A stretch of 64,000 nt of DNA from positions 1-64,000 of the IMG/VR virus record IMGVR_UViG_3300012153_000089, one strand, 5' to 3'. Position numbers and translations under genes: made by a program. The stretch comes from a virus (taxonomy: Duplodnaviria > Heunggongvirae > Uroviricota > Caudoviricetes). Below are positions 1 to 50,601 of the stretch, in pieces. The notes under the pieces are model-generated. The model made no database searches. It had not been told where the DNA came from and worked only from the letters and a program-made list of their open reading frames with translations. Numbering within the stretch: the stretch's first letter is position 1; each line of letters begins with the position of its first letter.

Positions 1-1635
1 TTATATATACTTTCTTATATCAAACTCAATCTTTTCTCCCGTGTTTTCTAAGCTATAAGAGCTATCTCCGTCAAATCTTACATCAACAATAGGCTGATTT
101 TTTTCTCCGGTTCTTACTATAAGTTTATCGATCATGTTTAATACTTCTTCTTTTTCATATAACTTCTTAATTTCTTGTTCATTGATTTTTACAATTTTCT
201 CTTCTATTTGTTCTACCTGCTCCATTATGTTTTCATTAGATTGCGAATAGTTTTTGATCTCTTTTTTAGTGTTAACTATTTCTTTCTCTATCTTTTCACT
301 TTCAATGTCTAGTGTTTCTTTTTCAAATACTCCATCTAAATACAACTCTAAAAGTTTTTTCTTCTTGATTTCCAGTGATGATAAAGTACTATTTAAATCT
401 TTACTTTTATCAATATCTTGTTTATCAATTGACTCTACTAATAGATCTCTCTGTTTCTTTAGTGAACTGACCCTTGTCTCTTTATCTTTAACAAACATCT
501 CATAGTAACCGCCGCACTGGAGTGCCTGAAGATAATAATCTATCTCACTATAATTGACATTGGGATTGTCACAAAAATCTCTCCCCTTTGTCTTCTTGGT
601 TTTACAATTATAATACCTTCTTCCCTTATCAATATTGCTTGTATATACAGATCCGCATTTCTCACAGTAAATTAGTCCAGCATACTCAGTTATGCCTTTA
701 TATATCCCCTTTTGAATGATATGATTCACTTTGCTTATTTTGATATTTTGGACAGTCAAAAATAACTCCTTAGAGACAATTGGGGGTATGCGATCTTCTG
801 TGACAATCCATTCCTCTTTGGGTTTAATTGTTGAATATGTTTTCTTGTTAAAAACCACACCAGAATCATATTTATTTCTTGCCAATGTTCCCATGTATTT
901 CTCATTGGAGATCATTCTTTTAATCATTGAAGGAGAAAACTCTTTGTCTTTACGTGTGTAGTATTTTTTATCGTTCAATACATTTATAATTCTTCTTACT
1001 CCTAATCCTTTAGAATATAAGTTGAATATTTCGAGAACTATTTTAGCTTCTTTTTCATTTACGGTTAGTGAATTTGATTTCGGATGATAATCATATCCAA
1101 ACAAATTGCTGGCTCCAAATATCCTACCCCGCTGAGCAGACTCTCTCAGACCGAATCTTACTTTCTTTGATTTATCTATGGAGTCTTGTTGGTCAAAATT
1201 GAGAAATAAATTTAACATAAACTCTTTATCCGAACTATCAAAAAGCAAATCTATGTCTAGAAATTTTACATATACTTTGTTTTTGAGTAGCTCTCTAAGA
1301 ATATCTATAACCATAACGTTCCTTGCAAATCTACTAGTATTCTTAACAAGTATGACATCAAACTTTGGTTGTACACTTTGATCTATTTCGAAAACACTTC
1401 TGCTTTTTGTAACCTTGGTTTCAATTAGTCCAGCATCAGCCAACATTCTGGTAAAATGTTCCCGCTTGGTGAGACTTGTCCCTGTAATTCCTCTGTCAGC
1501 ATAGATATCGACCAATTCCATTGTTTCGCTTCTTCCCACTTCTCGTTCGAAAAATTGCTTTTGATTCTCGAAACTATTCTCTTGGTCTTTTGATGATGTA
1601 CTTACACGGCAATACGCAACTACTCTTTGTTTCAA
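1..1635 (-). CDS. large serine recombinase (phage integrase type)
   Basis: 544 aa. N-terminal resolvase/invertase catalytic domain (VAYCRVSTSSKDQ with catalytic Ser), recombinase domain, Cys-rich zinc ribbon (CEKCG...CKTKKTKGRDFCDNP) and C-terminal coiled coil. Stop codon at window bases 1-3. Confidence 0.9.
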   Translation of the reverse strand: MKQRVVAYCRVSTSSKDQENSFENQKQFFEREVGRSETMELVDIYADRGITGTSLTKREHFTRMLADAGLIETKVTKSRSVFEIDQSVQPKFDVILVKNTSRFARNVMVIDILRELLKNKVYVKFLDIDLLFDSSDKEFMLNLFLNFDQQDSIDKSKKVRFGLRESAQRGRIFGASNLFGYDYHPKSNSLTVNEKEAKIVLEIFNLYSKGLGVRRIINVLNDKKYYTRKDKEFSPSMIKRMISNEKYMGTLARNKYDSGVVFNKKTYSTIKPKEEWIVTEDRIPPIVSKELFLTVQNIKISKVNHIIQKGIYKGITEYAGLIYCEKCGSVYTSNIDKGRRYYNCKTKKTKGRDFCDNPNVNYSEIDYYLQALQCGGYYEMFVKDKETRVSSLKKQRDLLVESIDKQDIDKSKDLNSTLSSLEIKKKKLLELYLDGVFEKETLDIESEKIEKEIVNTKKEIKNYSQSNENIMEQVEQIEEKIVKINEQEIKKLYEKEEVLNMIDKLIVRTGEKNQPIVDVRFDGDSSYSLENTGEKIEFDIRKYI

Positions 1636-1793: not shown

Positions 1794-2345
1794 TTACTCT
1801 TTTCCATATGTATTTATTGCCTCCATTATAAAGTCTTTTAAGTGATAGTGCCATCTCGTTCTAGGTTTATATCCTTTAATCTCGATTCCTATCTCATCGC
1901 ATATTGCTATTGAAATACTACTTTTATTTACTTTGCTTCTATATGTATGTTCCTTGATTTGATTCTGAGCTATGTTTTGATACTTCAAAAACTCTTCTAT
2001 ATGTATAAAGTACACTTTATTATCTGGCTCACGGAAATTCATTATGAAACCTGATATAACACCATCATATGTATTTGCTTCATTTAGTTTATCGATCTGA
2101 TGTTGCTTAATTACACTTTCTTGGAAGCTGATCGACTTATCCTTTGTTGATTTAAGTTCTAGTGTAAAAAGGTGGCTGTCCGCAAACATCATACAGTCAT
2201 AGTCATTCTTAGTTACCCTCACTCTGTTACGAAGATCTGGTGGAATAAAAGTGTCTTTCAAACGTGTAAAGAAGATCTTTTCTGCTCCTTGTGCTGCCGA
2301 CTTCTGAAAATCTTCTTCAAAAACCTTACCTAGATTTGTAGCCAA
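1794..2345 (-). CDS. recU: RecU-like Holliday-junction resolvase (PD-(D/E)xK nuclease)
   Basis: 183 aa. Segment NDYDCMMFADSHLFTLELKSTKDK...DGVISGFIMNF parallels B. subtilis RecU DYNGIYKGRYIDFEAKET...DGICFVIISAF. TTG start. Confidence 0.55.
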   Translation of the reverse strand: MATNLGKVFEEDFQKSAAQGAEKIFFTRLKDTFIPPDLRNRVRVTKNDYDCMMFADSHLFTLELKSTKDKSISFQESVIKQHQIDKLNEANTYDGVISGFIMNFREPDNKVYFIHIEEFLKYQNIAQNQIKEHTYRSKVNKSSISIAICDEIGIEIKGYKPRTRWHYHLKDFIMEAINTYGKE

Positions 2346-2500: not shown

Positions 2501-5500
2501 CTATACTTTAACTCTCTCTTGGGAGACTTTAATGTTCCCCTTATTATCAATCTTATCGATAAGCATTGTAGTATGCCTCACATTTGAATCCTTATATCTA
2601 TATGGTCTAAACTGTGATCCTCTTCGATATCCATGTAAAACAAGTTTATTCCCACGAGTAAACCAACTTTTCTCAAGAATCTCTTTTGAACCGTCAGACT
2701 TGGGTCTTGATACTTGCTTATTGTAGTTCGCAAATGCCCCATCATAATACTTAACTGTGACTACTCCATCCACCGTTAATAATGTAACTGTATTTTTATT
2801 CTTGTCTTTATCTAATACAGTTCCTGCTATTGTACTAAGCTTAAACTTAGGTCTGCTTCCGTAGCGCGATTCTATTGTTCCAACTACAACTGGGTCTTCA
2901 GGTAATTCTCCGTAATTAGTGATGCCATATCTCTCATTATCAATATCTTTAAGTTCATGTTCAGTATAGTAAAATGATAGTGAGTCCATTTCCCATTTAC
3001 TAATTGATCCATCTGCATATGTATTCCATTCATTCTGATACATCTTTTTATTGAACATTTCTAAGGCTCCTTCAGTAGCCAACCATTCCTTGATCCCTTC
3101 CATTTTCTTATCGTATTCCTTTTTGAAGGTTGACTCTTTAATGACTGGGAAGTTATTACTATACTCAACAATTCCCTCACCAGAAAAGTGTTCATAGTAG
3201 TATGGTGTAGAGACTTTATCAAGGACATAGAATTTTTCTTTGTCTCTCTTGATGAATACTCTTTTCATTACATATTTTCTAAAGTTGAAAGTCTTACTGT
3301 ATTTCTCCATGCCCTCCGGTATTAATTTGTTTTCAATAACAGCGTTGAGGTTTTGAAGATTGAGTTTGGTTTTCGGTGTGTACAGTAATGCAATAAAATC
3401 TTTCATAATCTCTATTCTGGAGCCATATTCCTCAAAGCACCCCGCCTTGATCAATTGAATAACTTGAGATTTCTTTATTGCAGAAGTCTTATACATTCGC
3501 TCAATGAAATCGTTAAAGTTTAAATATGGTCTATTCTTAATGATACTTTGTACCACTTCATCTCCAATACCATTGATACCTTTTAAACCGAATATAATCT
3601 GATCATTGTCTATATCAGGTTCAAATCCGAATCCTGCTTTATTGATGCTAGGCAAACCAATTCTCACACCTCTTGCTTGCATGTTACCGATAGCCGCTGC
3701 AATTTTACCGTAATTTGTTGATTGCGATTTATGGTCTTCTTCTTCACCATCATCATCAATTGAAGCTGAGTTTACTGTTAAGCAAGCCGTTCTCCAATAT
3801 ATTGGATCATAATTAATATTAAGATTGGCTTCTTGTAACGCTATAACTGAGTATGCTAAGGTGTGTAGCACTGAAAATGAATATGATAATTGTCTTGTTA
3901 TTTGTACATTCCAAACATAATCTAAAATTTCTTTTCTGATCCCTAAAGCCTCTCCATCACAAAAGAATTGCTCTTTGATTTCTTGTAGAGACTTCTTCAT
4001 TTGCTTTGGTTTAGCGATACTTTTTCTCAGTTTGTTGGCACTTTTAATATCAAAATTAGCAATACTACTATCCATTGATATCAACATTACGGATTCCTGA
4101 GTATCTGCTACACCATTTAACTTCAATAGATGTTTTTCCATAATTTTAATTTCATCATTATTCAAACCGTAATCGTGCATTTCTTTGTACCATAGATCAA
4201 TGTTATTTTTGTGTTTAACAAAAGTGTCAATCGGAGATTCCCCATGGTCACTTAGTAGTCGCATCAATGAATTAGCCGCTGCCAACTCAATAAGATTGGT
4301 CGGTTTAACTTTTTTTACTGTTTCGATTCCAATTTCAGTTGAAAATTGAAAAAGATCAGTTATACTATCTGAACCAATAAGATCGTAAACTCTCTGATTC
4401 TCAATATCTATAACGTTAGGATGTAAATACTTATTGTATGTATTTCTTATGCTACCTTGCCATTCCATAAGATTATTCTTGATTAATTTATCCATGGTTA
4501 CTCTAATCTTATCCAGAGCTTCAATTGTCAACAGATCAAACTTCATATTAGAAACAGCTTCACAATCTTCCAGTGATAACTGAGTGACGTGTGTCCCATT
4601 AGGTGCTGTCATCATAGCATTCGTTTTGTGGTATTCTTCATTAAACACAATAACTCCACTAGCATGAATGCTGCGTTTGTTGATTAATCCTTCTATTTTC
4701 ATTGAAACCTGAAGCCAATTTTCATGTTTATTGATTTCATCAACAAATTCTTTTACAGGTTTTCGTTCTTCTTCTTCATTCCCATAAAGACAGTCACTTA
4801 ATGTCCAGTTACTCCCACGCTCAAAAGGAATCAATCCAGATACATACATTGCTGTATCACTATCAACGCCCAAGCCCCTAGCTGCTGTTTGAACTGCTGA
4901 TTTGGATGCCTCTGTACCAAAAGTACATACTTGCAACACCCGATTTTCGCCAAAGTATTTCTTCAATTGTCTGAAAATTTGATTACGTTTAGCTGCTTCT
5001 GTATCTATATCCACATCCGGGAATTCGGGGCGTTCTGATGTTAAATGTCTCCAATGGGGCATTTCAATACCGTACTCCAGTGGGTTTATTTGTGTAATAC
5101 CCAACAAAAAACAAATCAAATAGCCAGCAGCAGAGCCACGAGAAGGCCCAACTAAACTGTTACCGCAATCGTCATCCCACATTACATTGACAATTTCTCG
5201 TACTGTAATGTAATAACTCGCAATAGATTGATTTAGATTCTCAGAGATTTTCCACAGTTCACCCAATTCTGTGTCAATCCGATTTGCTACTTCATGTAAC
5301 TTCTCTTTGCTATATGTATTGTAAGGGAGGAGTTCGTAAAATCCGTCTTCAATTAACTTAACAATATATCTGTCTTGGTCATTTGATGCGTGAGCCATCT
5401 TATTGATATATTCATACTTATTGTAAATCGATCTGAATAAACCTCTGAGTTGAAAATCGGGCAATTCAATTTTTGGAATGACTGTTGGTTTAAGAATCGT

Positions 5501-6445
5501 GTATTCTTGAATTTTTTCTCCTATTCTAACTGTATTGTCGAGAGCTCTTTTGACCACATCATGACTAAGATAGCTTAAACGTTCGTTGATCTCTTCATGA
5601 TTCTGTACAAATGTAGCTTCATAGAAGGCATCAACCTCTCTTTCACCTTCTTTTGCATTAAGGAATGCTTTATGAACGATTCTGTCTTCAGGTCTAAGAT
5701 AATGACTATCTGTTGTAACTATGTATTCAAGCCCAAACTTCTCAGCTAATTTAAGTAATTCCTTATTACAATAAATTTGTTCTTCACTATAAGCGGGTTG
5801 CAGTTCAAGATAAAAATCCTCTTTTCCAAATACATCTAAGCACCAATCTGTAAAGTCACACACTTTTTTATAAGCAACTTTTGCTTTATCTGTTTCCCCA
5901 GCGTCTAGATGGTGCTTCATTTCCAGTAATCCAATACAGTGAGGTGAACCAAGACATGCACTTGAAGCAATTAAATGACCGGGATCTTCATTAATAACTG
6001 ATTTAAGGAAGTCTTTAACTGTAGGAGTCCTTAGCATTGGCCCCGTAAAATATGATTGTCCCCAAGCTACCGAACTCATATATCGAAGCTGCTCATGCCC
6101 AATTTCATCCTTGGCTAAGAGAATGAAATGTGGGAATTTAGTTCGCCCACCAGATTTATAGTTGTCCCTAACTTCTTCAAGGCTATCTACTAGATAGATT
6201 TCATTACCGAGAATGAGCTTAAAGTCTTTATCAATCTTTCCTTTTTCCTTTAGTTTCTCTGTTGCTTGGATTGCTTTTACATGTGACGATACAGATTCAT
6301 GCTCTGTAAATGCCACACCCTTATGCCCCATATCGTGTACTGTTTGGATTAATTCTTCAACTCTGTTGGTGGTGTCCCTGAGCTTAAGATTAGAGCCCCT
6401 ATCGCTATGATTGTGAAGTAGTATCGAATTGCATTGATTACACAA
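2501..6445 (-). CDS. dnaE: DNA polymerase III alpha subunit (DnaE-type replicative polymerase)
   Basis: 1314 aa. N-terminal PHP domain (ILLHNHSDRGSNL...AFTEHESV) followed by polymerase core. TTG start with GGGAGGTG SD. Confidence 0.9.
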   Translation of the reverse strand: MCNQCNSILLHNHSDRGSNLKLRDTTNRVEELIQTVHDMGHKGVAFTEHESVSSHVKAIQATEKLKEKGKIDKDFKLILGNEIYLVDSLEEVRDNYKSGGRTKFPHFILLAKDEIGHEQLRYMSSVAWGQSYFTGPMLRTPTVKDFLKSVINEDPGHLIASSACLGSPHCIGLLEMKHHLDAGETDKAKVAYKKVCDFTDWCLDVFGKEDFYLELQPAYSEEQIYCNKELLKLAEKFGLEYIVTTDSHYLRPEDRIVHKAFLNAKEGEREVDAFYEATFVQNHEEINERLSYLSHDVVKRALDNTVRIGEKIQEYTILKPTVIPKIELPDFQLRGLFRSIYNKYEYINKMAHASNDQDRYIVKLIEDGFYELLPYNTYSKEKLHEVANRIDTELGELWKISENLNQSIASYYITVREIVNVMWDDDCGNSLVGPSRGSAAGYLICFLLGITQINPLEYGIEMPHWRHLTSERPEFPDVDIDTEAAKRNQIFRQLKKYFGENRVLQVCTFGTEASKSAVQTAARGLGVDSDTAMYVSGLIPFERGSNWTLSDCLYGNEEEERKPVKEFVDEINKHENWLQVSMKIEGLINKRSIHASGVIVFNEEYHKTNAMMTAPNGTHVTQLSLEDCEAVSNMKFDLLTIEALDKIRVTMDKLIKNNLMEWQGSIRNTYNKYLHPNVIDIENQRVYDLIGSDSITDLFQFSTEIGIETVKKVKPTNLIELAAANSLMRLLSDHGESPIDTFVKHKNNIDLWYKEMHDYGLNNDEIKIMEKHLLKLNGVADTQESVMLISMDSSIANFDIKSANKLRKSIAKPKQMKKSLQEIKEQFFCDGEALGIRKEILDYVWNVQITRQLSYSFSVLHTLAYSVIALQEANLNINYDPIYWRTACLTVNSASIDDDGEEEDHKSQSTNYGKIAAAIGNMQARGVRIGLPSINKAGFGFEPDIDNDQIIFGLKGINGIGDEVVQSIIKNRPYLNFNDFIERMYKTSAIKKSQVIQLIKAGCFEEYGSRIEIMKDFIALLYTPKTKLNLQNLNAVIENKLIPEGMEKYSKTFNFRKYVMKRVFIKRDKEKFYVLDKVSTPYYYEHFSGEGIVEYSNNFPVIKESTFKKEYDKKMEGIKEWLATEGALEMFNKKMYQNEWNTYADGSISKWEMDSLSFYYTEHELKDIDNERYGITNYGELPEDPVVVGTIESRYGSRPKFKLSTIAGTVLDKDKNKNTVTLLTVDGVVTVKYYDGAFANYNKQVSRPKSDGSKEILEKSWFTRGNKLVLHGYRRGSQFRPYRYKDSNVRHTTMLIDKIDNKGNIKVSQERVKV

Positions 6446-6617: not shown

Positions 6618-6899
6618 TTAAAATGATTCGAACAATTCTTCCAACTTTTCCTCATATAGCTCTGTATCCTCTGATTGTTCTTGTTCCGGTTCACTCTGAA
6701 TAATGAATTCAACAGTTCCTTCATTAGTTGGACGGTTCAAATAAGTGTTGTGTGAGTAAGGCGTACTACCAAAGAACAGTAACCTAAGCGCTCTCCTTAC
6801 GACATCGCTCTTATCTTCATGTGGAGGTAGGTTTTTCCAAGCTTCGCGTAGATCTTCATCTTTAATCGGTCTTAATCTTGCTCTTGCCGCTATTTCCAT
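6618..6899 (-). CDS. ParR-like adaptor / small DNA-binding partner of the actin-like ATPase
   Basis: 93 aa, basic N-terminus (MEIAARARLRPIK) and acidic C-terminus. Start overlaps the ParM-like stop by 10 nt, indicating translational coupling. The call rests on position. Confidence 0.4.
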   Translation of the reverse strand: MEIAARARLRPIKDEDLREAWKNLPPHEDKSDVVRRALRLLFFGSTPYSHNTYLNRPTNEGTVEFIIQSEPEQEQSEDTELYEEKLEELFESF

Positions 6900-7834
6900 G
6901 ATTTTTTACCTATCTTCCCGTATCCTCTCACTTGAGCCAACTGATCCATCAAGACTTTGTTAGGTAAATCTAAGTAATCAAAGATATAACGAGCAGCTCC
7001 ACCAGCAATTAAATATATGTCAAATTCCGTATTCAGACTTTCAATTTCATTCTTAATCTGTAAAGCTAAAGATTTAAATGCTCTTCTAATCAAAGGAACA
7101 ATGTTGTGCCCTTGGTATTTACCTGAGATCACGTATGGGTCTAATTCGTAAATTGCAGGAGTATGTCCAGTTAATTTTTGTATGTAAGTTTGCAGTAGTG
7201 TGTAGGCTTTCTCAACCCCAACCAATACACTTTTTGACTCTTTCATTATTGTTGACTTATCAAAACCCAATAAGTTTAGAGTGTAAAACCCCAAGTCTGC
7301 CGTAAGTATTTTTTTCTTTGCTTCTTTTAATCTGATGATCTTTCCATCGTCGTCTAGCAAATAATCCATTGTAATACCCAAACCCTGTGGAACCGTCTTG
7401 CACCTTTCAACGATGGGTTGTACTGGGTAACTCTTCCCTTTACCCTTGCGAATTTTATATTCTCCTTGATCGGCTAAGCCAAGTAGTTTTTCCTCGAATG
7501 GAGCTTTTTGTGTGAAGTAAAAGTTAATGGGTAGCCCACTGACCAAATTCACTTTATCTTTTTTTGCTAAGTATCCCAAAGTGGTCTTCATAACAACATC
7601 GCTAGTTTCGGCTTCAGCCTTTTTGTTGTTTAGTGAGAAGTACTTTATGTCACTGAATTCTAGTGCAACATTCCCCACAAATAGTTCATCATTATAGACG
7701 AAATGATCTGATTTAATATTTTGATCAAACATGTCTTTTGCTTCTCCTACTATTGTGGGCTGACGATAAAATTTTCCGTCTCTTTCTGCTTTGGTCCATT
7801 TAAAACCCAGATCTAAGTTCAGTATATTGCTCAA
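6890..7834 (-). CDS. actin-like segregation ATPase (ParM/Alp/StbA family)
   Basis: 314 aa. Actin-fold motifs LDLGFKWTKA (phosphate 1), ILTADLGFYTLNL (phosphate 2) and IYLIAGGAARYI (adenosine). TTG start with GAGGAGG SD. Confidence 0.75.
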   Translation of the reverse strand: MSNILNLDLGFKWTKAERDGKFYRQPTIVGEAKDMFDQNIKSDHFVYNDELFVGNVALEFSDIKYFSLNNKKAEAETSDVVMKTTLGYLAKKDKVNLVSGLPINFYFTQKAPFEEKLLGLADQGEYKIRKGKGKSYPVQPIVERCKTVPQGLGITMDYLLDDDGKIIRLKEAKKKILTADLGFYTLNLLGFDKSTIMKESKSVLVGVEKAYTLLQTYIQKLTGHTPAIYELDPYVISGKYQGHNIVPLIRRAFKSLALQIKNEIESLNTEFDIYLIAGGAARYIFDYLDLPNKVLMDQLAQVRGYGKIGKKSWK

Positions 7835-8805: not shown

Positions 8806-9051
8806 CTACTTTAACCAGTAATTCTTACGTATGTTCTCAATTACTTTTTCAGAAACTTCTTGAATCCACAATTCATATTTTTCAGTAAATGTTTTTAAAT
8901 CATCAACCGTATTCCACTTCTGTCCTAATAACTCATACTGGAAGAATACTCCTAGCATAAAATGAGTATCACAATGTTCATCATATTTAACTTCGTTATC
9001 GCAATACTTACATTTCACTTTTATGTATACTCCCCTCTCTTTGAAATGCAT
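8806..9051 (-). CDS. hypothetical zinc-ribbon protein (81 aa)
   Basis: CKYCDN...HCDTH Cys/His cluster. Confidence 0.5.
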   Translation of the reverse strand: MHFKERGVYIKVKCKYCDNEVKYDEHCDTHFMLGVFFQYELLGQKWNTVDDLKTFTEKYELWIQEVSEKVIENIRKNYWLK

Positions 9052-9054
9052 CTT

Positions 9055-9543
9055 TTACAAAGAATCATTCAATTCTTTTAGTTGGTTAATTACATCATGC
9101 ATGTACCAATACAAGTCACTTATTTCCTCAGACTTGTGCCCATCAAGAAAAATCCAATAACACTCATTTTCATACGCCACATTGACAGCTCGAACACTAT
9201 AGATTTTATGCCATCCGAGATGCTTTTCCTTTAATCCACCATTTTGTTCTATGTATTGTTTAAACGCTTCATTAAACTGTTCATAACATTCAATAGCTTG
9301 AGTCATATTCTCAAATCCCATGTATCCCTCGACTCCGACATGATACTGATCTTTGTCTGAGCACCAAACCTTGTCTTTCCAAACACTAAAGTCGTCACCT
9401 TGCCAATCAAACACTTCCTCTGCGTGTCCATTGCTTGCTGCTTCATCGAACTTTCCCTGTCTGTAAGCTTCGTTATAATAACTTTGTCTGATTGGTTCCA
9501 TTTCTTCTGAGTAGAAAAGTTCTTTTAGTTCCGAATTATCCAT
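9055..9543 (-). CDS. hypothetical protein (162 aa)
   Basis: packed co-directional ORF, no domain recognised. Confidence 0.5.
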   Translation of the reverse strand: MDNSELKELFYSEEMEPIRQSYYNEAYRQGKFDEAASNGHAEEVFDWQGDDFSVWKDKVWCSDKDQYHVGVEGYMGFENMTQAIECYEQFNEAFKQYIEQNGGLKEKHLGWHKIYSVRAVNVAYENECYWIFLDGHKSEEISDLYWYMHDVINQLKELNDSL

Positions 9544-9820
9544 TCACATCTTCCTCTCCGAAATATTCTTTAATCGCCTTATCAATATAACTTTTTCCAA
9601 TATTTAATGCATAATGCCTATTGAATACTGTTTGGTATACTAGAGGACATATTTTCTTTTTGATTTTTACATTGTGACTATGAAATAATCCGATTCCTTC
9701 AATCCACTCTGAATTATTTTTATATGTGATTTTATATGTAATTTCATCACGCACATAGTACTTAATGATTTTATTTCTGCTCAAGATGTTCCTCTTTTCT
9801 ATGTAAAATATAAGTTTCAT
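9536..9820 (-). CDS. hypothetical protein (94 aa)
   Basis: 8-nt overlap with downstream ORF, no domain recognised. Confidence 0.45.
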   Translation of the reverse strand: MKLIFYIEKRNILSRNKIIKYYVRDEITYKITYKNNSEWIEGIGLFHSHNVKIKKKICPLVYQTVFNRHYALNIGKSYIDKAIKEYFGEEDVNG

Positions 9821-9832
9821 TAAAACTATGTA

Positions 9833-10486
9833 TTATGCAAATGCTGGAGCTAATTTCTTCACACTACTTTTAAAATATTGATGCGCGGCCTGTCTCGTTA
9901 CATTCATTTCTCTGCCAATATCAGAAATACTCATACCATCGAAAAAATACTTACGAGACACAATCTTCTCTTTTGGGGTTAATTTACGTTCAATATGTCC
10001 ACTTAGTACATTGTCAAACATAGAGTCTTCAACAGCAATCAAGTCAAGATGACTATCGTCTGCCAATATTTCCGACAATAATTTTTCGCTGTCTCCAGAG
10101 TTTGTCTTGTAAAGATTGTTATCCATACTAATGCTGCTATATTTGCTACGACACTTCATACCTTTTGCTCTGGCATTTGCTGAGAACTCCCTTACAACCA
10201 CCTTTGCTAAATAAGTGGAGAATTTAATATTCTTAGAGTGGTCATATGTATCATAAGCTTTTATTAGTCCAACCATCCCCATACTAACTAACTCATCTGG
10301 TTCTTCATGTGAGCCGCTAGTTAACGTCTTGTTAGCCAATTTGACTACAAAATGCATGTTGTTTTTGATAATTTTGTCTTTTAATTCTTTGTCTCCTGTC
10401 TCTTTTGCTAGTTTAATCATTTCTTCATTGTTAAAATTTACGATACGCTTCTCCAGTTTGATGCTTATTTTCATTGTCTCCACCAT
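9833..10486 (-). CDS. sigma-70 family RNA polymerase sigma factor (SigF/SigG-like, phage-encoded)
   Basis: 217 aa. Region 2 (DELVSMGMVGLIKAYDTYDHSKNIKFSTYLAKVVVREF) and region 4.2 HTH (MSISDIGREMNVTRQAAHQYFKSSVKKL). Confidence 0.8.
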   Translation of the reverse strand: MVETMKISIKLEKRIVNFNNEEMIKLAKETGDKELKDKIIKNNMHFVVKLANKTLTSGSHEEPDELVSMGMVGLIKAYDTYDHSKNIKFSTYLAKVVVREFSANARAKGMKCRSKYSSISMDNNLYKTNSGDSEKLLSEILADDSHLDLIAVEDSMFDNVLSGHIERKLTPKEKIVSRKYFFDGMSISDIGREMNVTRQAAHQYFKSSVKKLAPAFA

Positions 10487-10644
10487 TGACTACATGTTTA
10501 ATGTAGTATCTTTCTTTTGTATTGTTGATTTAAATGACACTTCAAAGTAAAATTAATCCTGCAAGGGTAAATTAGATGGTGGATCGTATGAAGAGTCGTT
10601 CCTTAATTGGAGCGATTTCTTTTTTTCTTCTTAAAACAAGTGTT

Positions 10645-10661
10645 TTATTTAAACTGCTATG
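10645..10661 (-). promoter_or_regulatory. variant copy of the conserved AT-rich element (AAGTGTTTTATTTAAAC), copy 8
   Basis: overlaps the stop of the GHKL ATPase gene and lies upstream of the sigma-factor gene. Confidence 0.35.
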
Positions 10662-12486
10662 CCAGTGCCAAACCATCAATCAGACAGTCGTACAAGTCAT
10701 TCGGTCTTTCAATGTCATCAAAATTCATAAGACTTACCGCACGTACAATTTCTTTCAGATTCATTAGCAAAAACTTGTAGTCGTGAATATCTAGATTCTC
10801 ATCGCTACTTTCTCTTAGTTTGCTGTCATTAATAATTGATCTGTCCACGTATACTTTATTATTTATGTAATCGTGTGCAGCAACAAATTCATCTTCAATC
10901 TTTTCTATTGTATGATTGAGCACTTCAATATTGGTTTGCTTAATAACCATGACATCACCAATAGCAAATACATTTCGACTAAAACCAACCATACGACTTA
11001 TCATATCAAGCAACATTAAAGCTCTACTTTCTTTTAAACTCAATCTAGTATTTGAGATCGATGCTTTAATTAATGTGTTCTCTGTTAGTTGAGAAATATG
11101 AACAATATTTTGATCTTCACCTATTGCCTCTAGTATACTGCTTTCAAGTTTGTTTCTAGATACGATCACTTTTAGTTTGTAATGTTCAGCAATTTTAAAC
11201 TTTTTCTCATGTTCAACAATTTGATCAAATGACAACCAAAAGACAGGTTCCGATCCGAAGTCAATTTGCTGTCCTTTTCGTTCCTCGATTCTTTCTTCAT
11301 CAATCTCTGGTTTACTATAACCACCCGACGACCCCTCATATCCCGACCATGATCTAATCCCTTTTGCACTGGGAGCTAGATTTTTAACCTCTTGTTCAAA
11401 CTCAATTTCATGATGATTTGACTCAGATTGCCTTGCTGCTTCTGATCTGATAAATACCTCAAATTGATTAACATTTTTAATATCAGGATTTTTGCGTTTT
11501 GCCAATGCGATGCCTTGTAGATATTTAGAATCTGCATCGTCTACTGTATTGAATATAAGAAAGGTCATTTGACTTTTAAGTTTGTGCTTATCTGCGTTCC
11601 AAGAAATTGCATCGATATGTGAATCTATGTATTTTTGTTCTCCATTTAAAAAGCTTTCATTAGAAAGTTGTTTGATATGCTCTCTTACTTCCTTAAGGAA
11701 AAATTCAAACTTGTCATCCCTGACAATATCTTTACGATCTGGAGAGGTTAGATTTAGCGTTTTATCATTGATGTGTAAATCGCCTTTCACATAGTAGAAG
11801 TTTTCAAGTTTAGTTACCAACCTACCTTTATAGAACACTTTTAGGTCTTGACTGAATCCTGAATTCAATGCGATCCAACCTTGAATATTGTTCGATTCAA
11901 TCACACTAGAAAACACACTGCCATCCGTATCTGTCAAATTCTTTTTCGGTTGAAGCTTACCGTCACAGTGGATATCTAACTCATGAATATATTTACCCAG
12001 CAACTCAACTCGTTCGCGGATCAATGATGGCTGAACTTCTGTAAAATCAAAATTGTTAAGTATCAATTTAAAACCTTCATATGTATTGTCTGTATCGGTT
12101 ACTTCTATGTTTGTTTTATTATTCTGAATCATCTCGCCAACATTAAAGACAATATGTTTATTTCCCGTAAACACTTCAATATGATCGCTCACAGTAATGT
12201 TGCTGAAGAATCCCATTCCAAACGGCGACTCTGATTTTTGAATATCTTCATTCCACTCTGACTCAGCGATTGAAAATAGGGCTTGTGGATTGGCTAGTGC
12301 TTGACCATTATTTTCAATCGTAACTTTCTTGTTGTAGTAGTCTATTGTTACATGAACCTCAGTAGCTTTGGCTCGTTGAGCGTTCTGAATATCTTCATCA
12401 AGGAATGACAGCTTGTCCTTGAATGTACTCTGTCGTAGCAGTTTTAATTGGTTAATTACATTAACCTTTACTTGAACATTACTCAA
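10657..12486 (-). CDS. GHKL-superfamily ATPase domain protein (MutL/MORC/Hsp90-type HATPase fold), 609 aa
   Basis: N-terminal Bergerat-fold motifs: DIQNAQRAKA (N box), VTIENNGQAL (G1), SPFGMGFFS (G2), EVFTG. The remaining ~450 aa are unrecognised. No TOPRIM, so not a GyrB/topoisomerase. Confidence 0.6.
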   Translation of the reverse strand: MSNVQVKVNVINQLKLLRQSTFKDKLSFLDEDIQNAQRAKATEVHVTIDYYNKKVTIENNGQALANPQALFSIAESEWNEDIQKSESPFGMGFFSNITVSDHIEVFTGNKHIVFNVGEMIQNNKTNIEVTDTDNTYEGFKLILNNFDFTEVQPSLIRERVELLGKYIHELDIHCDGKLQPKKNLTDTDGSVFSSVIESNNIQGWIALNSGFSQDLKVFYKGRLVTKLENFYYVKGDLHINDKTLNLTSPDRKDIVRDDKFEFFLKEVREHIKQLSNESFLNGEQKYIDSHIDAISWNADKHKLKSQMTFLIFNTVDDADSKYLQGIALAKRKNPDIKNVNQFEVFIRSEAARQSESNHHEIEFEQEVKNLAPSAKGIRSWSGYEGSSGGYSKPEIDEERIEERKGQQIDFGSEPVFWLSFDQIVEHEKKFKIAEHYKLKVIVSRNKLESSILEAIGEDQNIVHISQLTENTLIKASISNTRLSLKESRALMLLDMISRMVGFSRNVFAIGDVMVIKQTNIEVLNHTIEKIEDEFVAAHDYINNKVYVDRSIINDSKLRESSDENLDIHDYKFLLMNLKEIVRAVSLMNFDDIERPNDLYDCLIDGLALA

Positions 12487-13023
12487 TTAATTGTCCTCCT
12501 TTTTGGGAGAAAACATATCAACCGCATCCACAACATCTAATTCATATTTTTCATTTTTGTAAAGTTGAGCTACACCTTCATTCATTAAAATACTCTTTTC
12601 CCACATGAGTAGTTTAGCGTTGTCTTTTTGTAATCCCTTAATCATATTATCGTTGCTATACATCTTACTCCTAATTGACTCGACAACTAAACCAGCACTC
12701 TTTTTAGCGTTTCTATTGACCAGATACTTTTCACCCCGATATCCCCTAGGAATATGAAGTTTGTCTGTTTCATCATAAAGACAAAACTCTTCCTTCGTTA
12801 CTTCTTTGGCATCATCTACCATCATTACAAAACTCATTCGATCCTCAATACCATTTACCAGATACCATTGTTCATTATTATCAAACTCCTTCGTAATGCT
12901 GTTACTCCAATATGTATCGAAAGCCCACATAAGTCCATTCTCACTCATAGCCGTATGCACAATTCCATGCCTACAACCTGTGCTGCTATTATCAACCCTA
13001 TAAATCGCTTTTTCTTGAATCAT
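12487..13023 (-). CDS. hypothetical protein (178 aa), directly upstream of and abutting the GHKL ATPase gene
   Basis: stop abuts the GHKL start, no domain recognised. Confidence 0.5.
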   Translation of the reverse strand: MIQEKAIYRVDNSSTGCRHGIVHTAMSENGLMWAFDTYWSNSITKEFDNNEQWYLVNGIEDRMSFVMMVDDAKEVTKEEFCLYDETDKLHIPRGYRGEKYLVNRNAKKSAGLVVESIRSKMYSNDNMIKGLQKDNAKLLMWEKSILMNEGVAQLYKNEKYELDVVDAVDMFSPKKEDN

Positions 13024-13379
13024 TTCATCTCTCCTAATTTGATTGTAGGATTTAACACTGTCAACAAATCTTCAATCTTAACATGCGAATATCTAGCGGC
13101 TTCATATCTTGCTGCTCTCCAAGTGTCTTCATCTATTTCTTTGTCCCTAAACTCTGCAACTATCTTATTCATGAAACGTTTAGCATTTCGATTTATATCA
13201 GTGTACTCAACTGTACTCAATGGTATCGCACTCTGAATTTTCTCATTGAATCCAGAGCAGATTCGTCTATCATAAATTTCAGTCTGATAATAATATTCAA
13301 GCCACTTAACAAATGCATGTTCATAGTGCACTTGGCTTGGTGAAGCGAATATCTCATAATATTCACGATGAAAGTCCAT
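13020..13379 (-). CDS. hypothetical protein (119 aa)
   Basis: 4-nt overlap with downstream gene. Confidence 0.5.
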   Translation of the reverse strand: MDFHREYYEIFASPSQVHYEHAFVKWLEYYYQTEIYDRRICSGFNEKIQSAIPLSTVEYTDINRNAKRFMNKIVAEFRDKEIDEDTWRAARYEAARYSHVKIEDLLTVLNPTIKLGEMK

Positions 13380-13436
13380 GATTCGATCTCCTTTCTCTGT
13401 AAAACAGGTATTTCATACAGAAAATTCTTGGTTTTC

Positions 13437-13844
13437 TTAATTGACGACTTTACTTTTAGCAAATTCAAGTTCCCTAACTTGGTTAGACCAGTACTCAACT
13501 TTGTATCTGGCATATTCTAGCTCATATTCTTCACGAAGAACTTCTTCTTTTTCTTCGATACTTTCCAGATAATCGATCATTTTTTTAATATCATTTACCC
13601 CACCATGTACCCAGTAGCTATTGTAGATTTCCTCAATCTCACATGCGATTTCAAGTGGAGTCTGATCTTCCACATTAATGCAATCTTTTTCGATATCAAC
13701 TAAGAATGATTTCCATAAATCTTTAGCATCTTCTCGTTCAATTACGAAGTAATATCTTCCACTTTCCTCTGATGAACCCAGTGTATAACGCCCTTGTTGA
13801 TATGATACTGTTACAAAGTTCTTTTTAGGTTTTTGAATAGTCAT
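13437..13844 (-). CDS. hypothetical protein (135 aa)
   Basis: contains DIKKMIDYLESI, a segment shared with the next gene. Confidence 0.5.
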   Translation of the reverse strand: MTIQKPKKNFVTVSYQQGRYTLGSSEESGRYYFVIEREDAKDLWKSFLVDIEKDCINVEDQTPLEIACEIEEIYNSYWVHGGVNDIKKMIDYLESIEEKEEVLREEYELEYARYKVEYWSNQVRELEFAKSKVVN

Positions 13845-13867
13845 TGTTTAACATTCTCCTTTTTATC

Positions 13868-14158
13868 TTATTGTTGTTCAGTAGTATCATCTTTCATCGC
13901 TTCCCATAGAGCATCAACCAATTCCTTTCCTTCGTAGTGCTCATCAGTAATAAGTACAATATTCCACTTCCCATCTATAATACTTTTGCCAATTGTCACT
14001 TCATCTAAATAGTCAATCATCTTACCGATATCCATTTTCTTGTGATGGTAATAAGCCCAATCTTTGCGAGGTACAATTTCATTAAAGAAAGAGTAAAATT
14101 GTTCTTCTGTAACTTCTTTAGCTTGCTTTGGGGTTATGTGATATTTCATCTCAACCAA
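13868..14158 (-). CDS. hypothetical protein (96 aa)
   Basis: contains DIGKMIDYLDEV, shared with the neighbouring gene. Confidence 0.5.
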   Translation of the reverse strand: MVEMKYHITPKQAKEVTEEQFYSFFNEIVPRKDWAYYHHKKMDIGKMIDYLDEVTIGKSIIDGKWNIVLITDEHYEGKELVDALWEAMKDDTTEQQ

Positions 14159-14391
14159 CCTATGTAAGAGATTAGTGCATCGGTGAATGTGCTACCATAA
14201 CTCATTTGGTGCATAATCCAGCCTATATCCTTATCCTTCTTTTGTAGAGTGAATAGCCCTCTGAATTCCTCATCTGTTAATTCTAAATTAAATTTATTGG
14301 CGTACTCTTTAACTTGTTTGAAGTGCCATTCTGTCCTTTCATTCCTCACTAGCTCGTCTGCTAGATGTTCGTATTCAATTACGTAAATCAT
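14146..14391 (-). CDS. hypothetical protein (81 aa)
   Basis: packed ORF. Confidence 0.45.
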   Translation of the reverse strand: MIYVIEYEHLADELVRNERTEWHFKQVKEYANKFNLELTDEEFRGLFTLQKKDKDIGWIMHQMSYGSTFTDALISYIGWLR

Positions 14392-14738
14392 CTATACTCT
14401 TCTCCCCAATCTTCTTCTGTTACTGTTCTCAAAGATTCTATCAATATGTATTCTTGTTCTTTGTCGAGTTTCATTTCAACTTCTTCTGGATACTCATCTT
14501 CCGCATACTCGAACGACTGCTTGTGAAACTCAACGTCTTCAATGTGCCAAAGTTTATCGTTTGGAGTTGCATTTGCTTTACGGCAACTTCGATATACGCT
14601 CAAATACAAATGATCGCTTAATTTAATCTTTAGTCGCCCACATGCACATCCGCCCTCAGCATCAAAATTCAACGTCCTATCTTTAATATTACTTATAATG
14701 TTTTGAAAGTAACCTTCTTTAATTCTTAGCATTGACAT
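14388..14738 (-). CDS. hypothetical protein (116 aa)
   Basis: packed ORF. Confidence 0.5.
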   Translation of the reverse strand: MSMLRIKEGYFQNIISNIKDRTLNFDAEGGCACGRLKIKLSDHLYLSVYRSCRKANATPNDKLWHIEDVEFHKQSFEYAEDEYPEEVEMKLDKEQEYILIESLRTVTEEDWGEEYR

Positions 14739-28872: not shown

Positions 28873-29730
28873 TTATTTAACCTCTTCGGCCTTAGTGGTC
28901 GGCAGTTGAATCATTGGAGTATTAGATCCACTTACATAGGGAAGTGCTCCATCCCATTTCTTAATTGTTTCATATTGAACGAGTTGATTAGAGAGTGACT
29001 GCTGAAGCTCTTTATTTGCTTTAGCTTGACCTTCTGCCTCAATCAATAGTTTGTCTGCATTACCTTGTGCCTCTACTCTTTTACGGTCTGCTTCTTTCTT
29101 GGCAATTTCTAGCTCAGTCGTTTTACGTTCCAGTTCTTGAGAAGCTTCCACACGTTTATCAATTGCTTCTTGAGTCTTAGCATCTGGCTGAGGAACGCCC
29201 ACGGTTACGTTTGATACGATAAAGCCCAACTCTTTAACATCATCGGCAAAACGTTGCTGAACATCTACTCCCGCTTCAGAAGACTTTTCACCATAAACAT
29301 CAATTACTGTAAACTTAGAGATCCCTTTGCGAGCTGCATCACGGAATCGTGTTTTGAGATATGTATCTTCAATTTCTTGAATGCCAATTGGCCCAAATGT
29401 GTTAAAAATGGATGACACCTTGCTTGGCTCTACTTGGTAGTTATAAGCAAAATCAATCGTGATGTTTTTACCGTCAGATGTAGCAATTTGAATATCTTTA
29501 TATTCTACTGTTTGAATTCGAATTGGATATTTAGTTACTTTATCAAACGCGCCAACCAACTTCCATCCTTGGCTTAGTGTACTGTCCTTCACACCTCCAT
29601 TTGGTGAATATACGACACCGACATATCCATTAGGAATTCTTGTTACAAAGAAACTCAGTAGCACTACTCCCAGAACAATAGCCAATCCAACCGCAACTGC
29701 TCCTACCTTAAATGTCTTTAGATTTTTCAT
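28873..29730 (-). CDS. SPFH / band-7 family membrane protein (HflK/C-, prohibitin-, flotillin-like)
   Basis: 285 aa. N-terminal TM helix, SPFH core, and a C-terminal coiled coil (ELEIAKKEADRKRVEAQGNADKLLIEAEGQAKAN) typical of HflK/C. Confidence 0.8.
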   Translation of the reverse strand: MKNLKTFKVGAVAVGLAIVLGVVLLSFFVTRIPNGYVGVVYSPNGGVKDSTLSQGWKLVGAFDKVTKYPIRIQTVEYKDIQIATSDGKNITIDFAYNYQVEPSKVSSIFNTFGPIGIQEIEDTYLKTRFRDAARKGISKFTVIDVYGEKSSEAGVDVQQRFADDVKELGFIVSNVTVGVPQPDAKTQEAIDKRVEASQELERKTTELEIAKKEADRKRVEAQGNADKLLIEAEGQAKANKELQQSLSNQLVQYETIKKWDGALPYVSGSNTPMIQLPTTKAEEVK

Positions 29731-48438: not shown

Positions 48439-48713
48439 TCGATTCTAATCTTCTTTCCTAACTCATTAACCTTTGAAACAATCCCACTTACAGCTCGTTT
48501 CGAATTCGATTCAAAAATCTCAAAGTACGCTTCTTCAGTATATCTATATGATATTCCTATGTTTTGATAAATTACTTCCCATTCGTCCTCGTGTAGAAGT
48601 GGTTTAGTTAAATCGTTATCTCTTGAACGATGTTCAATGATTCTTTCTTTATGTTGTGGCAGCATCATACGACTTGATTCCCACAGCCCATTTGCCTCCA
48701 GCTTTTTGCTCAT
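48363..48713 (-). CDS. yolD: YolD-like protein (partner of the Y-family polymerase)
   Basis: 116 aa, immediately downstream of and overlapping the uvrX-like gene, as in the B. subtilis uvrX-yolD and yqjW-yqjX pairs. The call rests on synteny and size. Confidence 0.55.
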   Translation of the reverse strand: MSKKLEANGLWESSRMMLPQHKERIIEHRSRDNDLTKPLLHEDEWEVIYQNIGISYRYTEEAYFEIFESNSKRAVSGIVSKVNELGKKIRIEWENGHEWIDIKSLVAVRLSGGGLE

Positions 48714-49951: not shown

Positions 49952-49976
49952 TATTCTCACTCCCGTATTCATATAA

Positions 49977-49989
49977 GAACATTTGTTTG
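49977..49989. promoter_or_regulatory. LexA (Cheo) box GAACATTTGTTTG
   Basis: 7 of 8 matches to the GAAC-N4-GTTC core, upstream of uvrX-like. Confidence 0.5.
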
Positions 49990-50005
49990 TATTAGTATTA
50001 TACAC

Positions 50006-50115: not shown

Positions 50116-50601
50116 ATGAAGGATAAAGTAAGAGGCTTAGTTGTTGGTATTCTGATTGGTTCAACAATTACAGGCGCAACAGCTTTTGCAGCAAGTGGGA
50201 CATCGATTAAGGCAGTAATTCAGAAGGTTAACTTATATGTAGATGGGACAAAGAAAACAACAGCAAACGCGATTACATACAATAACACTACATATGTACC
50301 AGTTAGAAGTATGAGCAGTGCATTGGGGCAAAACGTAGCTTTAAGCGATAATAACCTTTATATCGGGAAGATTCCTAAGTTAAACATTACAGAAAAAGAA
50401 GCAGTCAAACTTGTTAAGAACAAATATGGCTACAACAGTTCATATTTGATTGTTGAAGTTGACAATGAAGTAGATAATCAATATGTTGTTCATGTTTATG
50501 AAATAGTTATTGATGATGAGAAAACTGGAGAAGGTCATACAGCAACATATGGTTGGTATTATGTCGATAAATCAAGCGGGAAAATATCATCAATGTTCTA
50601 A
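50116..50601 (+). CDS. secreted protein with copper-amine-oxidase-N (stalk) and PepSY-like domains; moron on the opposite strand
   Basis: signal peptide MKDKVRGLVVGILIGSTITGATAFA-ASG, stalk-domain segment LYVDGTKK...YVPVRSMSSALG, and its own TATAAT promoter and terminator. Confidence 0.6.
   Translation: MKDKVRGLVVGILIGSTITGATAFAASGTSIKAVIQKVNLYVDGTKKTTANAITYNNTTYVPVRSMSSALGQNVALSDNNLYIGKIPKLNITEKEAVKLVKNKYGYNSSYLIVEVDNEVDNQYVVHVYEIVIDDEKTGEGHTATYGWYYVDKSSGKISSMF

What the first reader, a model, noticed from the sequence alone, without database searches (positions are those of the whole stretch)
9833..13023. Large GHKL (MutL/MORC/Hsp90-type) ATPase and tightly linked 178-aa gene directly upstream of a phage sigma factor
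10657..12486 has a clear N-terminal Bergerat ATPase fold: N box DIQNAQRAKA, G1 IENNGQAL, G2 FGMGFFS. It is followed by ~450 aa of unrecognisable sequence. It is not a topoisomerase (no TOPRIM) and not a classical histidine kinase. The 178-aa gene's stop abuts its start (12487), so the two are probably co-translated. A SigF/G-like sigma factor gene (9833..10486) lies immediately downstream. GHKL-fold proteins include the anti-sigma serine kinases SpoIIAB and RsbW, which control SigF/SigB-type sigma factors. MORC-type GHKL ATPases occur in defence and anti-defence contexts. A 609-aa GHKL protein next to a phage sigma factor is not a described module. It could be a regulatory kinase or ATPase controlling the sigma switch, or an anti-defence factor.
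Basis: partly seen in the sequence, partly recalled or inferred. Interest (0 to 1): 0.65.

Follow-up and report, generated by a model that had tools for sequence, protein, structure and literature searches.

The report
Degenerate Hsp90-like protein of large prophages
The 609-aa gene encodes a divergent Hsp90-type ATPase-fold protein joined to a catalytically dead metalloprotease-like domain; it belongs to a large, unstudied family carried by big prophages and megaplasmids, and its position beside a sigma factor is a local accident of gene order, not a conserved regulatory module.

Summary
The 609-aa protein has an Hsp90-type GHKL N-domain (hhalign to HtpG 96.9%; every top Foldseek PDB hit is an Hsp90). 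The "unrecognisable" remainder is an Hsp90-middle-like region, a disordered linker, and a zincin (metallopeptidase)-like C-terminal domain.

It belongs to an uncharacterised family of 1,727 50%-identity clusters. Members occur in 100-220 kb Firmicute prophages and in proteobacterial megaplasmids and ICE-like elements. Most members keep a canonical DxGxG box and a C-terminal HExxH motif. The window's clade has Asn in place of the adenine-binding Asp, which is the classic Hsp90 D79N ATP-binding-dead change, and it has no HExxH.

Most likely this is a stand-alone, protein-directed clamp or holdase derived from a chaperone-protease-like ancestor. Its biological role is unknown; one possibility is that it helps the element establish itself or counter host defence. 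Interest is moderate: the family is new, the proposed module is not.

The parts
10657..12486 (-). 609-aa gene: Hsp90-type GHKL domain, middle-like region and degenerate zincin-like domain (TTG start, TAG stop)
12037..12486 (-). Residues 1-150: Hsp90-like nucleotide-binding (Bergerat) domain. E31/N35 N box; N59-N-G61-Q-A63 non-canonical G1 box; P88-FGMGFFS G2 box; predicted disordered lid at residues 72-91.
   Evidence: hhalign against E. coli HtpG: 96.9%, E 1.9e-10, 163 columns. A3 profile against PDB: HtpG NTD 2.8e-11. Residue counts.
11716..12036 (-). Residues 151-257: beta-rich second domain (transducer/middle-like) ending in the near-invariant loop L-N-L-T-S-P249-D250-R251-K252
11431..11715 (-). 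Residues 258-352: helical region (pLDDT 74-94)
11287..11430 (-). Residues 353-400: predicted disordered acidic, Gly/Ser-rich linker
   Evidence: pLDDT below 50 in both models. pI 4.8.
10660..11286 (-). Residues 401-609: alpha/beta domain with a zincin-like fold. The position of the family's HExxH reads K578-E-I-V-R582, so the metal ligands are lost.
12487..13023 (-). 178-aa gene of unknown function. Its stop abuts the 609-aa start. It is a lineage-restricted accessory gene or possible partner.
   Evidence: Only 3 homologue clusters among 5.8 billion proteins, all Paenibacillus. It lies directly upstream of the GHKL gene in all 7 loci that have it; the stop|start abutment was read in four distinct relatives and holds down to 43% identity. 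No Pfam, PHROG or PDB hit.
12495..12499 (-). GGAGG ribosome-binding site for the 609-aa gene, inside the end of the 178-aa gene
   Evidence: Sequence. The same arrangement is seen in L031, L032 and L035.
9833..10486 (-). Sigma-70-family factor (217 aa; probably starts at 10474, giving 213 aa). It is a neighbour by synteny, not a conserved partner.
   Evidence: It is adjacent in only 10 of 70 loci. In L007, L008 and L036 a 248-aa gene lies between it and the GHKL gene.
10487..10656 (-). 170-nt intergenic spacer between the GHKL and sigma genes. No minus-strand promoter or terminator consensus was found.
   Evidence: the only terminator-like hairpin (10593-10618) is on the plus strand. Sequence.

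Best explanation
The 609-aa ORF is a stand-alone, conserved early/replication-region gene of a group of large (about 100-220 kb) temperate phages of Paenibacillus and Clostridia.

Architecture. It has an Hsp90-type GHKL N-domain, then a second domain carrying a near-invariant P-D-R-K loop. By analogy with the Hsp90 Arg380 or MutL/GyrB switch-lysine loops, that loop would contact the nucleotide gamma-phosphate. A helical region, a disordered linker and a C-terminal zincin-fold domain follow.

Family. It descends from a widespread, uncharacterised family of mobile-element proteins. In those, a canonical ATP-binding GHKL clamp is fused to an HExxH metallopeptidase, so the ancestor is predicted to be an ATP-driven chaperone-protease-like enzyme acting on proteins.

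This clade. The adenine-contacting Asp is invariantly Asn and the second G1 glycine is lost. The HExxH zinc site is also gone. The catalytic Glu, the Mg-binding Asn, the G2 box and the PDRK loop all stay invariant.

Proposed mechanism. I infer that it no longer proteolyses and does not bind ATP in the canonical way. It would act as a clamp or holdase that binds a protein client, of host or phage origin, possibly with altered nucleotide dependence. Dimerisation is assumed from the GHKL precedent and was not tested. The 178-aa gene would be a lineage-specific, translationally coupled accessory. The sigma factor is simply the next gene.

Shown: the fold and family assignment, the motif losses, the distribution and the lack of co-conservation. 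Inferred: dimeric clamp action, protein rather than DNA substrate, loss of ATPase and protease activity, and the biological role.
For: Fold and family:
- Foldseek against PDB: the top 50 hits are all Hsp90 family members (TRAP1 9e-17), with alignments of 396-769 columns, about 700 for the full-length chains.
- hhalign of the family profile against HtpG: 96.9%, E 1.9e-10 over the whole NTD. MutL matches only 53 columns.
- A3 profile against PDB: HtpG NTD 2.8e-11, against 5e-6 for MutL.

Family-wide motifs: 82 of 128 representatives have a C-terminal HExxH, and 98 of 128 have the G1 Asp. The cross-tabulation is (D, HExxH) 81; (N, none) 29; (D, none) 17; (N, HExxH) 1. Pfam Peptidase_M78, SprT-like or WLM hits occur in relatives.

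ATP site: N59 aligns with HtpG D80, which corresponds to yeast D79. The D79N mutant does not bind ATP (PMC2132952).

Conservation: invariant E31, Q34, N35, R38, G61, G90, G92, and near-invariant P249, D250, R251.

Charge: acidic throughout, pI 5.25, with no basic domain.

Distribution: 1,727 clusters, 36 IMG/VR contigs mostly 100-217 kb, 71 large plasmids. The surrounding genes are replication, nucleotide-metabolism and establishment genes.

Variable immediate neighbours.
Against: - There is no experimental information on any family member.
- The middle-domain and Arg-loop equivalence to Hsp90 is not supported by sequence: hhalign against the HtpG middle domain gives 0.15%.
- N59 is invariant rather than drifting, and the rest of the pocket is conserved. 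This could mean nucleotide binding is retained or re-specified rather than lost.
- In a crude NJ tree the Asn-type sequences are not cleanly monophyletic.
- The conserved abutment of the 178-aa gene and the recurrence of the sigma gene in one subclade leave room for a local functional link.
Confidence: 0.55

Rival explanations
1. MORC/MutL-like DNA clamp. The protein dimerises on nucleotide binding and traps or compacts DNA. It would help replication, segregation or repair of a very large phage or plasmid genome.
Against: All domains are acidic or neutral, with no basic patch-rich domain. No DNA-binding, nuclease, Toprim or winged-helix domain was detected. Sequence profiles match Hsp90 across the whole NTD but MutL only over 53 columns. 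The ancestral partner domain is a peptidase, which points to protein substrates.
Confidence: 0.15
2. Sigma-factor regulator. The GHKL protein acts like SpoIIAB/RsbW, binding or phosphorylating a partner to control the adjacent phage sigma factor, with the 178-aa protein as a cofactor.
For: The three genes are adjacent and co-oriented, with no terminator between them. The order 178-aa|609-aa|sigma is kept in 7 loci, down to 43% (178-aa) and 42% (sigma) identity.
Confidence: 0.05
3. Anti-defence or establishment effector. Like T4 rIIA (GHKL plus a variable C-terminus) or ArdC (a DNA-binding domain plus a zincin peptidase), the family neutralises host immunity proteins early after entry. The phage clade would work by sequestration rather than cleavage. 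This concerns the biological role and is compatible with the best explanation's mechanism.
For: The family is confined to mobile elements. On plasmids and ICE-like elements it lies among typical early/establishment genes: ArdA, DUF932, DUF1845, LPD29, STY4534 ICE replication protein, toxin-antitoxin pairs. Zincin peptidases are the commonest domain of early-phase 'polyvalent' effectors (PMC5512222). rIIA-type GHKL proteins are described as poorly understood counter-defence factors (PMC7824862).
Against: No homology to rIIA beyond the GHKL core (hhalign 20%). No solid PADLOC hit and no known anti-defence family hit. The context evidence is anecdotal. No defence system is identified as a target.
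Confidence: 0.25

Closest known systems
Hsp90 family (bacterial HtpG, TRAP1, Grp94)
   Same: The whole N-terminal nucleotide-binding domain aligns (hhalign 96.9%). The catalytic Glu, Mg-binding Asn and the GxxGxG 'FGxGFxS' box are shared. Predicted N-plus-middle architecture, acidic protein and similar length (609 vs 624 aa). Every top Foldseek PDB hit is an Hsp90.
Sacsin repeat (SRR) / bacterial sacsin-like GHKL domains
   Different: All hits are below the curated cut-offs. There is no repeat architecture and no DnaJ or HEPN domain.
MORC / MutL GHL ATPases
   Different: Sequence match is limited to the N-box/G1 region. No MutL C-terminal endonuclease or dimerisation domain, no CW, coiled-coil or DNA-binding modules. 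The protein is acidic.
T4 rIIA
   Same: A phage-encoded protein of about 700 aa with an N-terminal GHKL domain (a similar sub-threshold HATPase_c_3 hit) and an unassigned C-terminal region. Its function is poorly understood.
   Different: hhalign gives only 20% over 83 GHKL-core columns. There is no rIIB partner and the C-terminus is different. Not orthologous.
Zincin metallopeptidases of mobile elements (ImmA/IrrE M78, SprT/Wss1, ArdC C-domain, 'MPTase' of polyvalent proteins)
   Same: Relatives carry HExxH...DNTxEH at the C-terminus and hit Peptidase_M78, SprT-like or WLM. The window's C-terminal model resembles minimal zincins (projannalysin, Wss1, Spartan).
   Different: In the window's protein the HExxH ligands are replaced (KEIVR), so it cannot be an active zincin. 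Fusion to a GHKL domain was not found described in the literature searched.
Anti-sigma serine kinases SpoIIAB / RsbW
   Same: GHKL fold, and in this window a sigma factor gene next door.

Membership tests
GHKL (Bergerat-fold) superfamily | N box with a catalytic Glu and a Mg-binding Asn (ExxxN) | tested here: met
   E31 and N35 are invariant in 128 representatives. They align with HtpG E34 and N38.
GHKL (Bergerat-fold) superfamily | G1 box DxGxG with the adenine-contacting Asp | tested here: not met
   The window has N59-N-G61-Q-A63. The family majority has D[DN]GxG (D in 98 of 128, second G in 97 of 128). N59 aligns with HtpG D80.
GHKL (Bergerat-fold) superfamily | G2 box (GxxGxG) and overall fold | tested here: met
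Hsp90 family | Hsp90-specific N-terminal domain, beyond the generic GHKL core | tested here: met
   hhalign covers HtpG residues 8-210. The A3 profile hits Hsp90 NTDs at 1e-10 to 1e-11 over the whole NTD.
Hsp90 family | Middle domain with the catalytic-loop Arg (yeast R380) | tested here: inconclusive
Hsp90 family | C-terminal dimerisation domain, and a match to the Pfam HSP90 model | tested here: not met
Zincin metallopeptidases (M78/SprT-like) | HExxH zinc-binding/catalytic motif plus a third ligand | tested here: not met
   The window has K578-E-I-V-R582 at the aligned position. HExxH is present in 82 of 128 relatives.
Zincin metallopeptidases (M78/SprT-like) | Zincin core fold (beta-sheet plus active-site helix plus a following helix) | tested here: inconclusive
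Anti-sigma serine kinases (SpoIIAB/RsbW) | Small single-domain HATPase_c_2 kinase, genetically coupled to its sigma factor and a STAS antagonist | tested here: not met
MutL / MORC | GHKL plus an S5-fold transducer with a switch Lys, and family-specific C-terminal modules | tested here: inconclusive
Type II/IIB topoisomerases (GyrB, Topo VI-B, Topo VIII) | Toprim and 5Y-CAP/winged-helix cleavage domains, or a partner A subunit | tested here: not met
T4 rIIA family | Homology beyond the GHKL core, and an rIIB partner | tested here: not met
   hhalign 19.8% over 83 columns. No PHROG rIIA hit.

The most novel reading that the evidence does not exclude
The wider family would be a previously unrecognised class of ATP-driven chaperone-protease, an Hsp90-type clamp fused to a zincin peptidase. 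Large phages, megaplasmids and ICEs would use it during establishment to remodel or destroy specific host proteins such as immunity or repressor proteins. The window's clade would be a catalytically silenced derivative with a natural D79N-type pocket and no zinc site. It would work as a decoy or holdase, with the abutting 178-aa protein as its lineage-specific adaptor.
Probability: 0.2. Interest if true: 0.75.

Novelty: new variant of a known kind. Interest (0 to 1): 0.45.

Why it matters
Hsp90-type machines are known as host chaperones, and phage GHKL proteins are known only as topoisomerase subunits or the enigmatic rIIA.

This work points to a large family (about 1,700 50%-identity clusters) restricted to mobile elements. 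It joins an Hsp90-like ATPase to a metallopeptidase. A phage-borne branch has lost both catalytic signatures yet stays under strong constraint.

If the ancestral form is an ATP-dependent protease-like effector, it would add a new architecture to the ATP-dependent protein-remodelling machines, and a new candidate for host takeover or anti-defence. The degenerate branch would be a natural experiment in Hsp90-fold pseudoenzymes.

For annotation, it replaces 'hypothetical/ATP-binding protein' with a testable domain model. It also removes a tempting but unsupported link to sigma-factor control.

Tried and rejected
- Topo VIII / type IIB topoisomerase (my first lead, because Paenibacillus plasmids carry Topo VIII): rejected. 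No Toprim or winged-helix domain, and no topoisomerase hits for the C-terminal half.
- Anti-sigma kinase: rejected on fold rank, size and lack of co-conservation.
- rIIA orthology: rejected.
- Known phage relatives: megablast and tblastn of the window protein, a clostridial homologue and an HExxH-type homologue against 50,697 phage records gave nothing useful.
- Defence-system membership: PADLOC gave only weak GHKL-level hits (TmtA, REase_II, capP).
- A curated family name: none in NCBIfam beyond sub-threshold sacsin, MutL or HtpG hits.
- Sequence-level proof that the PDRK loop equals the Hsp90 'NLSRE' catalytic loop: failed (hhalign 0.15%), so it is kept only as an inference.
- A conserved neighbour gene across the family: none found by clustering ORFs of 24 loci. 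Immediate neighbours elsewhere are HNH homing endonucleases or unknowns.
- The 178-aa protein as a split-off domain of longer relatives: no similarity. It also has no PDB, Pfam or PHROG match.
- Clean monophyly of the Asn-type/HExxH-less clade: not obtained with a crude NJ tree.
- Literature: searches for a described GHKL-metallopeptidase fusion found none. Those searches cover only the held open-access library.
Full report
**1. Observation**

The three ORFs exist on the minus strand at the stated coordinates.
- The 609-aa ORF starts with TTG at 12486. This start lies directly after the TAA stop of the 178-aa ORF. A GGAGG ribosome-binding site sits 8 nt upstream of the TTG.
- Homologues begin at the same residue and cover 100% of the length, so the start is right.
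- The downstream ORF is a sigma-70-family factor (Pfam r2 2.7e-10, r4 2.5e-5; phrog_351 4.6e-32). It lies 170 nt away. No minus-strand promoter or terminator consensus falls in the gap.
- The window is the early/replication arm of a large SPbeta-like integrated element. It carries a large serine recombinase, RecU, PolIII alpha, an actin-like ALP, RNR, ThyA/DHFR, a RecJ-like protein, a DnaB-like protein and a Y-family polymerase.
- The window's own contig is 1.7 Mb, so the element is a prophage.

**2. The N-terminal domain**

Pfam HATPase_c_3 is marginal for the window protein (24.1 vs 25 bits). Relatives pass threshold, and 68 of 80 distant relatives hit the model.

Several results place the domain with Hsp90 rather than with the GHKL core in general.
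- A profile of 128 family representatives aligns with the whole N-domain of E. coli HtpG (96.9%, E 1.9e-10, 163 columns).
- MutL matches only 53 columns, and T4 rIIA only the core at 20%.
- A profile of 80 relatives hits Hsp90 N-domains in the PDB at 1e-10 to 1e-11, against 5e-6 for MutL.
- The AlphaFold model (pLDDT 78) returns only Hsp90-family chains among the top 50 Foldseek hits, with alignments of about 700 columns for the full-length chains.

**3. The 'unrecognisable' 450 residues**

The model has four further parts:
- a beta-rich second domain (residues 151-257);
- a helical region (258-352);
- a disordered acidic Gly/Ser linker (353-400);
- an alpha/beta C-terminal domain (401-609).

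The second domain ends in L-N-L-T-S-P-D-R-K. P249, D250 and R251 are present in 127 of 128 representatives. By position this resembles the gamma-phosphate-sensing loop of GHL ATPases and Hsp90. The equivalence has no sequence-profile support, so it remains an inference.

**4. The family and what this clade has lost**

An exhaustive profile search finds 1,727 50%-identity clusters at E ≤ 1e-3, mostly 550-700 aa.

In an alignment of 128 representatives, 98 have the canonical G1 Asp, 97 have the second Gly, and 82 have a C-terminal HExxH...DNTxEH motif. Of the HExxH-type members, 37 of 80 hit Peptidase_M78, 9 hit SprT-like and 6 hit WLM.

The window's clade differs at both sites.
- It has N59 and A/V/I63 in the G1 box.
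- It has no HExxH. The aligned residues are KEIVR in the window and are variable in relatives.
- The cross-tabulation is (D, HExxH) 81; (N, none) 29; (D, none) 17; (N, HExxH) 1.

N59 aligns with HtpG D80, which is yeast D79. The engineered D79N mutant does not bind ATP and is lethal (PMC2132952).

Even so, E31, Q34, N35, R38, G61, G90 and G92 are invariant. N59 itself is invariant within the clade. This argues for constraint, not decay. A crude NJ tree places all Asn-type sequences in one half of the family but not as a clean clade.

**5. Distribution and context**

- Close homologues (49-87% identity) occur in Paenibacillus chromosomes and in Clostridium/Lachnospiraceae contigs. They also occur in 36 IMG/VR viral contigs, mostly 100-217 kb.
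- Isolated phages give no hits.
- Distant homologues lie on 71 plasmids of 100-600 kb, annotated as 'ATP-binding protein' or 'hypothetical protein'.
- On those plasmids the neighbours include RNR, toprim, DUF932, DUF1845, LPD29, STY4534 ICE replication protein, DnaE, DnaB and ArdA genes.
- In Paenibacillus prophages the gene always sits between the RNR/ThyA block and the ALP/PolIII block. Its immediate neighbours change.

**6. The trio**

- The 178-aa protein has only three homologue clusters in 5.8 billion proteins, all from Paenibacillus.
- It is found in 7 loci: L005, L031-L035 and L037. In every one it lies directly upstream of the GHKL gene and is followed by the sigma gene. The stop|start abutment was read in four distinct relatives. 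The arrangement holds down to 43% (178-aa), 71% (GHKL) and 42% (sigma) identity.
- Sigma without the 178-aa gene occurs in L007 and in L008/L036. There a 248-aa gene intervenes.
- An HMM built from the sigma homologues finds a sigma-like ORF in only 10 of the 70 loci held. One of the 70 is the T4 control.
- Neighbours in the other loci are HNH endonucleases or unknowns.

The 178-aa/609-aa coupling remains a plausible lineage-specific partnership.

**7. Mechanism**

The ancestral architecture joins a canonical GHKL clamp to a zincin peptidase. Together with an acidic protein that has no DNA-binding or nuclease domain, this points to proteins, not DNA, as substrates.

I therefore favour a stand-alone clamp or holdase derived from a chaperone-protease-like ancestor. 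In this clade it would be non-proteolytic and without canonical adenine recognition.

The biological role is unknown. One possibility is establishment or counter-defence, given that the family is restricted to mobile elements and given the plasmid contexts. Zincin peptidases are the commonest domain of early-phase effectors (PMC5512222). rIIA-type GHKL proteins are regarded as poorly understood counter-defence factors (PMC7824862).

Two rivals remain. A MORC/MutL-like DNA clamp is not excluded. Sigma control is unlikely.

**8. Novelty and score**

No curated family (Pfam, NCBIfam, PHROGs, PADLOC) and no paper in the searchable library describes a GHKL-zincin fusion or this phage branch.

It is a new variant of a known kind: an Hsp90-type GHKL protein with a new partner domain and a degenerate phage lineage. 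The headline claim of a sigma-linked module does not hold, and function remains inferred. Interest is therefore moderate, at 0.45.

Noticed in passing
window 6890-7834 (-), plus the small ORF just downstream (93 aa in the source assembly, L005 15588-15869): An actin-like ALP/ParM-type segregation ATPase (Pfam ALP_N 7.6e-18, phrog_691 'partition protein') with a small downstream gene, inside an integrated prophage. The pair is conserved next to PolIII alpha in related Paenibacillus elements. This suggests these large phages can also be maintained as plasmids, or that they segregate their DNA actively.
   Followed up: partly
window 2501-6445 (-); compare L004 13644-17836, L026 1334-5865: The element encodes its own full-length PolIII alpha (1314 aa). 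In relatives (P. donghaensis prophage, C. perfringens pJFP838A) the dnaE gene is split into two ORFs, with another gene or a gap between them. That pattern suggests an intein or a homing-endonuclease insertion.
   Followed up: no
window 1-1635 (-) and 1794-2345 (-): A large serine recombinase (Resolvase, Recombinase and Zn_ribbon_recom domains), cut by the window edge, sits next to a RecU-like resolvase. It is probably the integrase end of the prophage, as in SPbeta.
   Followed up: no
L006 7302-7964, L009 11893-12663, L001 4069-5136 and 9847-10833: HNH/AP2 homing-endonuclease genes are repeatedly inserted directly beside the GHKL gene in relatives. In C. botulinum a DUF4942 gene and a tyrosine recombinase also lie just upstream. 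The gene looks like a conserved anchor flanked by hot spots for mobile insertions.
   Followed up: partly
window 28873-29730 (-): A phage-encoded SPFH/Band-7 (flotillin-like) membrane-scaffold protein (Pfam Band_7 8.6e-32).
   Followed up: no
window 48710-50005 (-): A Y-family (ImpB/MucB/DinB-like) translesion DNA polymerase is encoded by the element. Next to it lies the only sizeable plus-strand ORF seen in this stretch (50116-50601).
   Followed up: no
window 10593-10618 (+): The only terminator-like hairpin in 9000-14500 lies in the GHKL-sigma spacer but on the plus strand, antisense to all the genes. On the coding strand it has no T-run, so the GHKL and sigma genes may be co-transcribed.
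   Followed up: partly
L001 13019-16626, L013 9012-13533, L016 12856-15187: Clostridial and some Paenibacillus relatives carry an NAD-salvage block a few kb downstream of the GHKL gene (isochorismatase/nicotinamidase, NAPRTase/NAMPT-like, NAD synthase). Such blocks are known from large phages as a counter to host NAD depletion.
   Followed up: no
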